Of a stretch of DNA of 64,000 nucleotides, positions 1 to 4,709 are shown one piece after another (the first letter of the stretch is position 1; each line of letters starts with the position of its first letter). The stretch is taken from the NCBI RefSeq assembly GCF_009914755.1, contig NC_060928.1; one strand, given 5' to 3'. Below the pieces are notes generated by a model, which made no database searches, was not told where the DNA came from, and saw only the letters and a list, made by a program, of their open reading frames with translations. A program made the position numbers and the translations under genes. The DNA comes from the human T2T-CHM13v2.0 reference genome, Homo sapiens.

Positions 1-237
1 ACCCTCAAAGGAAAGCCCATCAGACTAACAGCGGATCTCTCGGCAGAAACCCTACAAGCCAGAAGAGAGTGGGGGCCAATATTCAACATTCTTAAAGAAA
101 AGAATTTTCAACCCAGAATTTCATATCCAGCCAAACTAAGCTTCATAAGTGAAGGAGAAATAAAATACTTTATAGACAAGCAAATGTTGAGAGATTTTGT
201 CACCACCAGGCCTGCCCTAAAAGAGCTCCTGCTGTAA
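1..237 (+). pseudogene. L1 ORF1p C-terminal part, prematurely terminated by the Alu insertion
   Basis: Frame 1 reads TLKGKPIRLTADLSAETLQARREWGP...YPAKLSF...RPALKELL, then Alu-derived CTG TAA (stop 235-237). The last 21 codons ([21 protein letters not shown]) are displaced to 528-593. Confidence 0.95.
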
Positions 238-514
238 TCCCAGCACTTTGGGAGGCCGAGGCGGGTGGATCATGAGGTCAGGAGATCGAGACCATCCTGG
301 CTAACAAGGTGAAACCCCGTCTCTACTAAAAATACAAAAAATTAGCCGGGCGCGGTGGCGGGCGCCTGTAGTCCCAGCTACTCGGGAGGCTGAGGCAGGA
401 GAATGGCGTGAACCCGGGAAGCGGAGCTTGCAGTGAGCCGAGATTGCGCCACTGCAGTCCGCAATCCGGCCTGGGCGACAGAGCGAGACTCCGTCTCAAA
501 AAAAAAAAAAAAAA
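232..514 (+). mobile_element. AluYb8, 5'-truncated by about 22 nt, inserted in L1 ORF1
   Basis: Yb8 diagnostics GGTGGATCATGAGG, CTAACAAGG, CGGGAAGCGG, GAGATTGCG and the 7-bp duplication GCAGTCC-GCAATCC. Pure A tail. TSD AAAAGAGCTCCTG at 219-231 and 515-527. Confidence 0.96.
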
Positions 515-656
515 AAAAGAGCTCCTGAAGGAAGCGCTAAACATGGAAAGGAACAACCGGTACCAGCCGCTGCAAAATCATGCCAAAATGTAAAGACCAT
601 CGAGACTAGGAAGAAACTGCATCAACTAATGAGCAAAATCACCAGCTAACATCATA

Positions 657-3600
657 ATGACAGGATCAAATTCACACATAACAATATTAACTTTAAATAT
701 AAATGGACTAAATTCTGCAATTAAAAGACACAGACTGGCAAGTTGGATAAAGAGTCAAGACCCATCAGTGCGCTGTATTCAGGAAACCCATCTCACGTGC
801 AGAGACACACATAGGCTCAAAATAAAAGGATGGAGGAAGATCTACCAAGCAAATGGAAAACAAAAAAAGGCAGGGGTTGCAATCCTAGTCTCTGATAAAA
901 CAGACTTTAAACCAACAAAGATCAAAAGAGACAAAGAAGGCCATTACATAATGGTAAAGGGATCAATTCAACAAGAGGAGCTAACTATCCTAAATATTTA
1001 TGCACCCAATACAGGAGCACCCAGATTCATAAAGCAAGTTCTCAGTGACCTACAAAGAGACTTAGACTCCCACACATTAATAATGGGAGACTTTAACACC
1101 CCACTGTCAACATTAGACAGATCAACGAGACAGAAAGTCAACAAGGATACCCAGGAATTGAACTCAGCTCTGCACCAAGCAGACCTAATAGACATCTACA
1201 GAACTCTCCACCCCAAATCAACAGAATATACATTTTTTTCAGCACCACACCACACCTATTCCAAAATTGACCACATAGTTGGAAGTAAAGCTCTCCTCAG
1301 CAAATGTAAAAGAACAGAAATTATAACAAACTATCTCTCAGACCACAGTGCAATCAAACTAGAACTCAGGATTAAGAATCTCACTCAAAGCCGCTCAACT
1401 ACATGGAAACTGAACAACCTGCTCCTGAATGACTACTGGGTACATAACGAAATGAAGGCAGAAATAAAGATGTTCTTTGAAACCAACGAGAACAAAGACA
1501 CCACATACCAGAATCTCTGGGATGCATTCAAAGCAGTGTGTAGAGGGAAATTTATAGCACTAAATGCCTACAAGAGAAAGCAGGAAAGATCCACAATTGA
1601 CACCCTAACATCACAATTAAAAGAACTAGAAAAGCAAGAGCAAACACATTCAAAAGCTAGCAGAAGGCAAGAAATAACTAAAATCAGAGCAGAACTGAAG
1701 GAAATAGAGACACAAAAAACCCTTCAAAAAATCAATGAATCCAGGAGCTGGTTTTTTGAAAGGATCAACAAAATTGATAGACCGCTAGCAAGACTAATAA
1801 AGAAAAAAAGAGAGAAGAATCAAATAGACACAATAAAAAATGATAAAGGGGATATCACCACCGATCCCACAGAAATACAAACTACCATCAGAGAATACTA
1901 CAAACACCTCTACGCAAATAAACTAGAAAATCTAGAAGAAATGGATAAATTCCTCGACACATACACTCTCCCAAGACTAAACCAGGAAGAAGTTGAATCT
2001 CTGAATCGACCAATAACAGGCTCTGAAATTGTGGCAATAATCAATAGTTTACCAACCAAAAAGAGTCCAGGACCAGATGGATTCACAGCCGAATTCTACC
2101 AGAGGTACAAGGAGGAACTGGTACCATTCCTTCTGAAACTATTCCAATCAATAGAAAAAGAGGGAATCCTCCCTAACTCATTTAATGAGGCCAGCATCAT
2201 TCTGATACCAAAGCCGGGCAGAGACACAACCAAAAAAGAGAATTTTAGACCAATATCCTTGATGAACATTGATGCAAAAATCCTCAATAAAATACTGGCA
2301 AACCGAATCCAGCAGCACATCAAAAAGCTTATCCACCATGATCAAGTGGGCTTCATCCCTGGGATGCAAGGCTGGTTCAATATACGCAAATCAATAAATG
2401 TAATCCAGCATATAAACAGAGCCAAAGACAAAAACCACATGATTATCTCAATAGATGCAGAAAAAGCCTTTGACAAAATTCAACAACCCTTCATGCTAAA
2501 AACTCTCAATAAATTAGGTATTGATGGGATGTATTTCAAAATAATAAGAGCTATCTATGACAAACCCACAGCCAATATCATACTGAATGGGCAAAAACTG
2601 GAAGCATTCCCTTTGAAAACCGGCACAAGACAGGGATGCCCTCTCTCACTGCTCCTATTCAACATAGTGTTGGAAGTTCTGGCCAGGGCAATCAGGCAGG
2701 AGAAGGAAATAAAGGGTATTCAATTAGGAAAAGAGGAAGTCAAATTGTCCCTGTTTGCAGACGACATGATTGTTTATCTAGAAAACCCCATCGTCTCAGC
2801 CCAAAATCTCCTTAAGCTGATAAGCAACTTCAGCAAAGTCTCAGGATACAAAATCAATGTACAAAAATCACAAGCATTCTTATACACCAACAACAGACAA
2901 ACAGAGAGCCAAATCATGGGTGAACTCCCATTCACAATTGCTTCAAAGAGAATAAAATACCTAGGAATCCAACTTACAAGGGATGTGAAGGACCTCTTCA
3001 AGGAGAACTACAAACCACTGCTCAAGGAAATAAAAGAGGAGACAAATAAATGGAAGAACATTCCATGCTCATGGGTAGGAAGAATCAATATCGTGAAAAT
3101 GGCCATACTGCCCAAGGTAATTTACAGATTCAATGCCATCCCCATCAAGCTACCAATGACTTTCTTCACAGAATTGGAAAAAACTACTTTAAAGTTCATA
3201 TGGAACCAAAAAAGAGCCCGCATTGCCAAGTCAATCCTAAGCCAAAAGAACAAACCTGGAGGCATCACACTACCTGACTTCAAACTATACTACAAGGCTA
3301 CAGTAACCAAAACAGCATGGTACTGGTACAAAAACAGAGATATAGATCAATGGAACAGAACAGAGCCCTCAGAAATAATGCCGCATATCTACAACTATCT
3401 GATCTTTGACAAACCTGAGAAAAACAAGCAATGGGGAAAGGATTCCCTATTTAATAAATGGTGCTGGGAAAACTGGCTAGCCATATGTAGAAAGCTGAAA
3501 CTGGATCCCTTCCTTACACCTTATACAAAAATCAATTCAAGATGGATTAAAGATTTAAACGTTAAACCTAAAACCATAAAAACCCTAGAAGAAAACCTAG

Positions 3601-4484
3601 GCATTACCATTCAGGACATAGGCGTGGGCAAGGACTTCATGTCCAAAACACCAAAAGCAATGGCAACAAAAGACAAAATTGACAAATGGGATCTAATTAA
3701 ACTAAAGAGCTTCTGCACAGCAAAAGAAACTACCATCAGAGTGAACAGGCAACCTACAACATGGGAGAAAATTTTTGCAACCTACTCATCTGACAAAGGG
3801 CTAATATCCAGAATCTACAATGAACTCAAACAAATTTACAAGAAAAAAACAAACAACCCCATCAAAAAGTGGGCGAAGGACATGAACAGACAGTTCTCAA
3901 AAGAAGACATTTATGCAGCCAAAAAACACATGAAGAAATGCTCATCATCACTGGCCATCAGAGAAATGCAAATCAAAACCACTATGAGATATCATCTCAC
4001 ACCAGTTAGAATGGCAATCATTAAAAAGTCAGGAAACAACAGGTGCTGGAGAGGATGCGGAGAAATAGGAACACTTTTACACTGTTGGTGGGACTGTAAA
4101 CTAGTTCAACCATTGTGGAAGTCAGTGTGGCGATTCCTCAGGGATCTAGAACTAGAAATACCATTTGACCCAGCCATCCCATTACTGGGTATATACCCAA
4201 ATGAGTATAAATCATGCTGCTATAAAGACACATGCACACGTATGTTTATTGCGGCACTATTCACAATAGCAAAGACTTGGAACCAACCCAAATGTCCAAC
4301 AATGATAGACTGGATTAAGAAAATGTGGCACATATACACCATGGAATACTATGCAGCCATAAAAAATGATGAGTTCATATCCTTTGTAGGGACATGGATG
4401 AAATTGGAAACCATCATTCTCAGTAAACTATCGCAAGAACAAAAAACCAAACACCGCATATTCTCACTCATAGGTGGGAATTGA
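657..4484 (+). CDS. L1 ORF2p endonuclease/reverse transcriptase, open full-length frame (1275 aa)
   Basis: APE endonuclease motifs (QET, GDFN, SDH), RT FADD motif, C-terminal CX3CX7HX4C; no stop or frameshift. Confidence 0.97.
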
Positions 4485-4709
4485 ACAATGAGATCACATG
4501 GACACAGGAAGGGGAATATCACACTCTGGGGACTGTGGTGGGGTCGGGGGAGGGGGGAGGGATAGCATTGGGAGATATACCTAATGCTAGATGACACATT
4601 AGTGGGTGCAGCGCACCAGCATGGCACATGTATACATATGTAACTAACCTGCACAATGTGCACATGTACCCTAAAACTTAGAGTATAAAAAAAAAAAAAA
4701 AAAAAAAAA

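What the first reader, a model, noticed from the sequence alone, without database searches (positions are those of the whole stretch)
1..4709. Human-specific AluYb8 inside ORF1 of an L1HS Ta-1 leaves an ORF1-truncated, ORF2-open composite
Seen: both elements belong to the youngest human lineages. The TSD is perfect at an endonuclease-type CT/AAAA site. The Alu adds L-stop after ...KELL, removing the last 21 aa of ORF1p, while ORF2 stays open. Established: L1 needs both ORFs in cis, whereas Alu needs only ORF2p. Inference: if the upstream 5'UTR is intact, the locus could supply ORF2p for SINE mobilisation without moving itself. It may segregate as three alleles (empty, L1 only, L1+Alu), with the Alu disabling a once-active L1.
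Basis: partly seen in the sequence, partly recalled or inferred. Interest (0 to 1): 0.8.

Follow-up and report, generated by a model that had tools for sequence, protein, structure and literature searches.

The report
Decaying L1 with nested Alu insertion
This is a full-length, human-specific L1 retrotransposon with a young Alu inserted near the end of its first gene, but that gene is also broken earlier by a stop codon and the second gene carries damaging-looking changes, so it is an ordinary decaying element already listed in print.

Summary
The in-window observation holds. The ORF1 tail ends ...KELL + L + stop inside a sense-oriented AluYb-type element (window 232-518). A 13-nt duplication (AAAAGAGCTCCTG) flanks the Alu, 21 ORF1 codons are left stranded after it, and ORF2 is open (1275 aa).

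The upstream DNA changes the interpretation:
- The L1 is full length.
- ORF1 has an earlier stop at codon 130, where 20 of 20 compared copies have an arginine codon. The Alu is therefore not the only lesion.
- ORF2p has Arg at site 39 and Leu at site 665, residues not seen there in 75 and 89 distant relatives.
- 986 nt with 14 ATGs lie between the first ORF1 stop and the ORF2 start.
- By chance alone ORF2 would stay open with probability about 0.5.

Between its 16-nt duplication and its 5' end the L1 carries a 146-nt leader made of two spliced exons of a multicopy lncRNA. Law & Burns 2026 list this exact locus in Table S5. Their GRCh38 coordinates show the L1 split at the same place, so that assembly probably carries the Alu too.

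"ORF1-disrupted, ORF2-intact" L1s are an established class (107 in L1Base 2). Verdict: real but ordinary. The ORF2p-donor idea is possible but weakened.

The parts
1..237 (+). In-window end of ORF1 as it now stands: native codons up to Leu317, then Leu and TAA supplied by the Alu. The rest of the element lies before the window (window position = L009 position minus 6000). Upstream parts: 5' copy of the L1 duplication AGAAATTTATTGTCTT at L009 4216-4231; 146-nt non-L1 leader at 4232-4377 (extra G plus exon 1 at 4232-4313, exon 2 at 4314-4372, TTTTA at 4373-4377); L1 5'UTR at 4378-5280; ORF1 ATG at 5281; premature stop TGA at ORF1 codon 130 at 5668-5670.
   Evidence: in-window part. (upstream anatomy and the stop); 20 of 20 compared copies have CGA at codon 130; the two leader pieces match multicopy loci about 2.1 kb apart, with GT/AG borders in the source loci; same duplication and same 146 nt listed for the GRCh38 locus in Law & Burns Table S5; codon 130 is one of the four commonest first-stop positions in human L1 ORF1.
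219..231 (+). Upstream copy of the Alu target-site duplication AAAAGAGCTCCTG
232..518 (+). AluYb-type element in sense orientation, lacking its first 22 nt, with a 21-A tail at 498-518
515..527 (+). Downstream copy of the Alu target-site duplication (its first four A's are shared with the Alu tail)
528..593 (+). Stranded last 21 codons of ORF1 ([21 protein letters not shown]) plus the stop
   Evidence: read directly. No Pfam family for this 24-aa piece.
594..656 (+). 63-nt inter-ORF spacer
   Evidence: A 63-nt spacer is stated in PMC5972666.
657..4484 (+). ORF2, open, 1275 aa. Its residue is shared by 0 of 20 copies at C39R, K313T, T431K, Y510N, P665L, A867P and H1079Q (K431 is also in the solved ORF2p sequence), by 3 of 20 at T625M and by 2 of 20 at Q892K
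4485..4709 (+). L1 3'UTR and 23-A tail (4687-4709). The terminal AATAAA hexamer is absent
   Evidence: 18 of 20 copies read ...GAGTATAATAAAA, whereas this copy reads ...GAGTATAAAAAAA.
4709..4724 (+). 3' copy of the L1 target-site duplication AGAAATTTATTGTCTT

Best explanation
A chimeric RNA retrotransposed into an older repeat on 4p. It consisted of the capped first two exons of a multicopy lncRNA joined to a full-length L1 of the Ta type. The insertion left a 16-nt duplication. Later an AluYb element lacking its first 22 nt inserted in the sense direction at a TTTT/AG-type site 21 codons before the ORF1 stop, leaving a 13-nt duplication. At an unknown time relative to the Alu, a CpG transition made ORF1 codon 130 a stop. 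The element has collected more single-copy changes than any of 20 intact copies compared, including two at conserved ORF2p sites.

It cannot move itself. ORF2 is still open only because too few substitutions have fallen on it. Any ORF2p output is expected to be small and the protein probably impaired.

Shown: the anatomy, the lesions and the conservation counts. Inferred: the order of events, the low ORF2p output and the loss of activity.
For: - Anatomy and both duplications.
- Leader made of two exons with GT/AG borders in the source loci. The same locus and the same 146 nt appear in Law & Burns Table S5.
- ORF1 stop at codon 130, where 20 of 20 copies have CGA.
- This copy has 16 single-copy differences in 5425 compared positions, against a median of 5 and a maximum of 13 for the 20 copies.
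- All 20 of those copies have an open ORF2 and 19 of 20 a 338-aa ORF1.
- Of the 13 ORF2 sites shared by at most 3 of 20 copies, 9 change the residue and 4 do not, about what unconstrained change gives.
- 5.4% of possible single substitutions in this ORF2 create a stop, so the probability of no stop after 13 changes is 0.49.
- Site 39 is I/V/L/A/F/T/Y/C/M/G/W in 75 of 75 non-gap relatives, never charged. Site 665 is P in 74 of 89 and never L.
- P665 is named among the primer/template contacts.
- An ORF1 premature stop is reported to lower ORF2p expression.
- 986 nt and 14 ATGs precede the ORF2 start.
- No other scored copy carries the combinations of changes peculiar to this element. No other copy of the full leader or of the junction was found.
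Against: - All catalytic residues checked are intact (N14, E43, D145, D205, H230, D600, D702, D703) and so is the Cys motif.
- The endonuclease domain tolerated many natural point mutations in Alu assays (PMC4837594 passages).
- No assay of C39R or P665L was seen.
- ORF2p alone suffices for Alu mobilisation (stated in PMC5605252 and PMC5210629), so even a small output could matter.
- 11 of the 22 differences are transversions (read). Some were therefore probably inherited from the lost source element rather than acquired by decay, and the age estimate is soft.
- Expression of this locus was not examined.
Confidence: 0.78

Rival explanations
1. One reading: the locus is an ORF2p-only donor. It is transcribed from its intact 5'UTR (or leader), cannot move itself, but supplies ORF2p in trans for Alu or SVA mobilisation.
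For: Full-length 5'UTR and open 1275-aa ORF2 with catalytic residues present. L1Base 2 defines exactly this class as possibly able to drive Alu. ORF2p alone is sufficient for Alu. Even L1 or ORF2 constructs with stops inside ORF2 drove low-level Alu retrotransposition (PMC4176336).
Against: Early ORF1 stop, with 986 nt and 14 ATGs before ORF2. Reported reduction of ORF2p when ORF1 has a premature stop. Arg39 and Leu665 at conserved sites. No progeny or expression evidence was obtained.
Confidence: 0.1
2. The locus acts as a source of a 129-residue ORF1p fragment (N-terminus plus most of the coiled coil) that joins trimers of intact ORF1p and lowers L1 retrotransposition in trans.
For: The stop is at codon 130. 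Sokolowski et al. report that L1.3 with a 130Stop expresses truncated ORF1p and suppresses L1 retrotransposition in trans, and that truncations around 110-130 are the most effective (PMC5605252 passages).
Against: No evidence that this locus is transcribed. It is one of 375 loci with a stop in the 99-132 region, so any single locus contributes little. This copy also has T9I and N72K, of unknown effect.
Confidence: 0.08
3. The composite is an assembly artefact or a CHM13-private rearrangement.
For: None found.
Against: Both insertions have perfect duplications and A-tails. The GRCh38 coordinates in Table S5 split the L1 after 1854 nt, exactly the length from the L1 start to the Alu in CHM13, with a 296-nt gap (compared).
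Confidence: 0.01

Closest known systems
L1Base 2 category 'ORF2-L1' (intact ORF2, disrupted ORF1; 107 in GRCh38)
   Same: Full-length L1 with an open ORF2 and a broken ORF1. The proposal that such loci may still drive Alu is the database's own rationale (PMC5210629 passages).
   Different: Here ORF1 is broken twice, by a stop at codon 130 and by the Alu. Whether L1Base lists this locus could not be checked, because the database is not held.
mRNA/lncRNA-L1 5' chimeras of Law & Burns 2026 (17 in hg38, Table S5)
   Same: This locus is one of their rows: chr4:16942777-16949113, the same 16-nt duplication, the same 146-nt leader, assigned to ENSG00000291032. The leader is in sense orientation, starts at a first exon, and the L1 is near full length, as in most of their cases (section 13).
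   Different: They score the splice donor as 'Undetermined' because of the TTTTA. In 3 of 3 source loci I read, exon 2 ends exactly at a GT donor. They do not discuss the nested Alu, the ORF1 stop or the state of ORF2.
Full-length L1 loci with an ORF1 stop at codon 130 (Sokolowski et al. 2017)
   Same: Same stop position, attributed there to CpG deamination. Here it is CGA to TGA.
   Different: This locus has an Alu in ORF1 in addition, and an L1HS background. Only 8.5% of their loci with a stop in the 99-132 region are L1HS.
SVA_F1 (MAST2 exon 1 spliced onto SVA); recalled, no call
   Same: A first exon of a host gene fused to the 5' end of a non-LTR retrotransposon and carried along in retrotransposition.
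   Different: SVA_F1 founded a subfamily. This leader occurs once in the genome.

Membership tests
L1HS, Ta type | Full-length architecture: 5'UTR, ORF1, 63-nt spacer, ORF2, 3'UTR, A-tail, target-site duplication | tested here: met
   99.1-99.6% identity to 20 intact copies.
L1HS, Ta type | Diagnostic ACA/G in the 3'UTR (L1Base 2 passage; the position is recalled) | tested here: met
   GATGACACATTAG at window 4590-4602, shared by 18 of 20 compared copies.
L1HS Ta-1 (as against Ta-0) | T and G at two ORF2 sites three nt apart (Asn-Glu in ...YPNEYKS...). Recalled; no paper passage giving the positions was found. | tested here: inconclusive
   AATGAG is present at window 4201-4206, inside the motif found at 4197 (read). 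The criterion itself is from memory.
AluYb8 | 7-bp insertion diagnostic of Yb subfamilies | tested here: met
   Aligns over 266 nt to its identical copies but over 259 nt to the 93-94% tier. The criterion is from PMC5531096.
AluYb8 | The full set of Yb8 diagnostic substitutions, as against Yb9 or other Yb subfamilies | not tested
   No subfamily reference sequence was available from a tool. The copy shares a variant in the duplicated heptamer with at least 6 other copies.
L1Base 2 'ORF2-L1' | ORF2 without gaps, frameshifts or stops | tested here: met
   1275 aa open, aligned end to end to solved ORF2p.
L1Base 2 'ORF2-L1' | Disrupted ORF1 | tested here: met
   Stop at codon 130 and an Alu after codon 317.
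Functional ORF2p donor | Active endonuclease and reverse transcriptase | tested here: inconclusive
   Catalytic residues are present, but Arg39 and Leu665 sit at conserved sites. Activity cannot be tested with these tools.
lncRNA-L1 5' chimera (Law & Burns) | Non-L1 sequence inside the duplication, in sense orientation, starting at a first exon and carrying a splice junction | tested here: met
   Listed in Table S5.

The most novel reading that the evidence does not exclude
The exon-1 leader brings transcription-factor sites that keep this dead L1 transcribed when ordinary L1 promoters are silenced. The locus would then act as a natural modulator. It would make a 129-residue ORF1p fragment that dampens L1 in trans, plus traces of ORF2p usable by Alu. 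Alleles differing at codon 130 or in the Alu would alter a person's retrotransposition load.
Probability: 0.04. Interest if true: 0.5.

Novelty: already known. Interest (0 to 1): 0.14.

Why it matters
It matters little on its own. Young Alus nested in young L1s are common, ORF1-broken/ORF2-open L1s are a catalogued class, and this locus with its spliced leader is already in a published table.

The useful outcome is a correction. The Alu is not the sole lesion, because ORF1 stops at codon 130, and 'ORF2 open' should not be read as 'ORF2p active'. The locus could serve as one natural test case of how much ORF2p a doubly ORF1-broken L1 can still deliver.

Tried and rejected
- Rfam scan of window 1-5000: 0 matches at gathering score. 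Alu is not an Rfam family, so this says nothing.
- Source L1 for the leader: the pattern TTTTA plus the L1 start occurs twice, here and at an unrelated L1 on C1 with no acceptor before it. No L1 5' sequence lies within 6.6-7.8 kb downstream of exon 2 in three source loci.
- Exon 3 starting with TTTTA: candidate AG|TTTTA sites exist downstream of exon 2 but none is compelling. Left open.
- Junction at other loci: one further exact hit, which is unique non-repeat sequence, so chance.
- Progeny or parent carrying this element's peculiar changes: none among the 40 scored of 1315 and of 1149 candidates. Unscored candidates remain.
- The per-mutant trialanine values (Adney et al.) are in a supplement I could not open. 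The journal version is not held. I saw only the preprint's passages and section 14.
- Alisch et al. 2006 is not held. What I say of it comes through PMC5972666 and PMC4176336.
- Ta-0/Ta-1 diagnostic positions were not found in the passages read.
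Full report
**What is in the window.**

Reading 1-5000 and listing frames confirms the description.
- A frame open from the window start ends at 237 as ...TTRPALKELLL*.
- Pfam assigns its residues 15-77 to the L1 ORF1 dsRBD-like domain (PF17490, E 5.5e-48).
- It aligns to the solved ORF1p chains up to ...ALKELL, residue 317.
- The next codon (CTG) and the TAA belong to an insert at 232-518 that ends in 21 A's.
- AAAAGAGCTCCTG stands at 219-231 and again at 515-527, where its first four A's overlap the tail.
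- After it, 528-593 encodes [21 protein letters not shown] and a stop, which are the 21 stranded codons.
- The 63-nt spacer (594-656) follows, then ORF2 (657-4484), open for 1275 aa with endonuclease and RVT_1 domains.
- A 23-A tail ends at 4709.

**The insert.**

- The first 266 nt are 100% identical to 6 other genomic copies among the 40 scored of 136 candidates. Four more differ at about one base.
- A lower tier at 93-94% aligns over 259 nt, 7 fewer. This fits the 7-bp insertion that Feusier et al. call diagnostic of many AluYb subfamilies (PMC5531096 passages).
- Against one full identical copy (L043), this one lacks the first 22 nt.
- I did not test Yb8 against other Yb subfamilies.
- Because the Alu lies inside a Ta-type L1, it must be younger than that L1.
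- The 18-nt junction has one other exact match in the genome, in unrelated unique sequence.

**Upstream of the window.**

The genome is held, so I fetched C4:16920001-16926300 (L009; window position = L009 position minus 6000). The L1 is full length. It starts GGGAGGAGCCAAGATGG at L009 4378, and the ORF1 ATG is at 5281.

ORF1 stops at codon 130 (TGA at L009 5668-5670...NEMK*EGKF...). This lies far upstream of the Alu. In this haplotype ORF1p therefore ends after 129 residues, and the Alu-borne stop is never reached by a ribosome that began at the ORF1 ATG.

**Comparison with other copies.**

I fetched the 20 best-scoring L1 copies found with ORF2 as query.
- All 20 have an open 1275-aa ORF2. 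Nineteen have a 338-aa ORF1 and one a 355-aa ORF1.
- This element is 99.1-99.6% identical to them.
- Tallying site by site, without building any consensus, gives 22 sites where at most a quarter of the copies share this element's base.
- In ORF1 these are T9I, N72K, the stop at 130 (20 of 20 copies have CGA) and two silent changes.
- Among the ORF2 sites, the residue-changing ones shared by 0 of 20 copies are C39R, K313T, T431K, Y510N, P665L, A867P and H1079Q.
- T625M is shared by 3 of 20 copies and Q892K by 2 of 20.
- Four further ORF2 sites are silent.
- K431 agrees with the solved ORF2p sequence, so it is variation between L1 lineages.
- Against the solved sequences the differences are C39R, H305Y, K313T, Y510N, T625M, P665L, A867P and Q892K (aa 1-957 shown), plus H1079Q (aa 941-1275).
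- This element has 16 single-copy differences in 5425 positions, the most of the 21 sequences. The 20 others have a median of 5 and a maximum of 13.
- Eleven of the 22 differences are transversions (read). Some probably came from the lost source element.

**Is the open ORF2 meaningful?**

- Of all single substitutions possible in this ORF2, 617 of 11475 (5.4%) create a stop. The chance of no stop after 13 changes is 0.49.
- The 9:4 split of residue-changing to silent changes is what unconstrained change gives.
- The catalytic residues N14, E43, D145, D205, H230, D600, D702 and D703 and the Cys motif are present.

To judge the changes peculiar to this copy, I searched 1.84 billion representatives with ORF2p residues 1-1100. 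I then aligned 89 hand-picked long distant relatives (23-35% identity) of the 150 listed.
- Site 39 is I/V/L/A/F/T/Y/C/M/G/W in all 75 relatives that have a residue there, and never charged. It lies four residues before E43. This copy has Arg.
- Site 665 is P in 74 of 89, otherwise A/S/G/C/T, and never L. It lies in the near-invariant GCPLSPLLF stretch.
- Baldwin et al. list P665 among the palm residues that contact primer and template (PMC10830420, figure legend).
- The other sites are variable in the relatives.

Against a verdict of 'inactive': Kines et al. found the endonuclease domain tolerant of many natural point mutations (PMC4837594 passages). I also saw no assay of either change.

**Translation of ORF2.**

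An unconventional termination-reinitiation mechanism has been proposed for ORF2, across a 63-nt spacer (PMC5972666 passage citing Alisch et al.). Kines et al. 2014 state that a premature stop in ORF1 was reported to reduce ORF2p expression from the bicistronic RNA (PMC4176336 passage). Here 986 nt with 14 ATGs lie between the codon-130 stop and the ORF2 ATG. From the Alu-borne stop the distance is 419 nt with 6 ATGs. I infer low ORF2p output; this is not shown.

**The leader.**

The L1's duplication AGAAATTTATTGTCTT is at L009 4216-4231 and window 4709-4724. Between its 5' copy and the L1 start lie 146 nt that are not L1.
- In the genome they match only in two pieces: positions 2-88 (up to 95%) and 82-141 (97%). 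The pieces lie about 2.1 kb apart on one strand, at many loci on the acrocentric short arms, C24, and pericentromeric C1, C3, C4 and C9. Only this locus has all 146 nt.
- In the source loci the first piece ends at ...CTGTGG|GTAGGT. The second is bounded by ...CCAG| and |GTGAGT in 3 of 3 loci read.
- The leader is therefore exon 1 spliced to exon 2, then TTTTA of unknown origin, then L1 base 1.
- Its first G is not in the source loci. I take it, from recall, to be the extra G often left by reverse transcription of a cap.
- No L1 with the matching flank was found.

This is already in print. Law & Burns 2026 (PMC13174262; abstract, sections 13 and 20, and supplement passages read) describe 17 such mRNA/lncRNA-L1 chimeras in hg38. 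Their Table S5 lists chr4:16942777-16949113 with the same duplication and the same 146 nt. The gene is given as ENSG00000291032, the 3' untemplated sequence as TTTTA, and the splice donor as 'Undetermined'.

Their L1 coordinates are split: 16942777-16944630 and 16944927-16949113.
- The first block is 1854 nt, exactly the distance from the L1 start to the Alu in CHM13.
- The gap is 296 nt.
- GRCh38 therefore very probably carries the Alu too. I did not see the GRCh38 sequence itself.

**What is known about such loci.**

- Sokolowski et al. found 1244 full-length human L1s with ORF1 stops. In 59% the first stop is at codon 49, 98, 110 or 130, which they attribute to CpG deamination.
- They found that an L1.3 with a 130Stop expresses a truncated ORF1p that suppresses L1 retrotransposition in trans.
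- In 4 of 50 loci they checked, the stop was polymorphic (PMC5605252 passages).
- That gives a second possible activity for this locus and a reason to genotype codon 130.

**Verdict.**

The most likely reading is a decaying, immobile L1 chimera whose ORF2 is open by chance. The donor and dampener readings remain possible at low odds, and both depend on expression data that I could not obtain. No progeny or parent carrying this element's peculiar changes was found among the scored copies.

Noticed in passing
window 4677-4709: The L1 ends ...GAGTATAAAAAAA. 18 of 20 compared copies read ...GAGTATAATAAAA, so the terminal AATAAA hexamer is missing here and in 1 of the 20. If the element is transcribed, read-through into the 3' flank would be more likely.
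   Followed up: partly
window 4725-5100 and L009 about 4140-4215: The L1 sits inside an older interspersed repeat. The 3' flank is 74-78% identical to at least 39 other places in the genome.
   Followed up: no
L019 (C4:49119000-49128999), 2.7-3.4 kb downstream of exon 2: One source locus of the leader holds a tandem array of about 35-nt units (...GTCACTCCCATTGTTTTGGGTTCCAGTTTTAGCAC...). The array is absent from the two acrocentric source loci read.
   Followed up: no
L020, L014, L018 versus L009 4232-4372: The leader differs from every source copy scored (exon 1 at best 95%, exon 2 97%). This includes a GG where all three source loci read have AA in exon 2. The true source paralogue is therefore absent from, or changed in, this assembly.
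   Followed up: partly
GRCh38 coordinates in Law & Burns Table S5 versus CHM13: From the L1 start to the 3' duplication GRCh38 spans 6344 nt and CHM13 6331 nt. This 13-nt difference probably lies in one or both A-tails. The GRCh38 sequence was not seen (compared).
   Followed up: no
ORF2 codon 431 (window 1947-1949): This copy and the solved ORF2p sequence have Lys, whereas all 20 compared intact copies have Thr. This is a lineage marker that sets the element apart from the copies the search ranked best.
   Followed up: no
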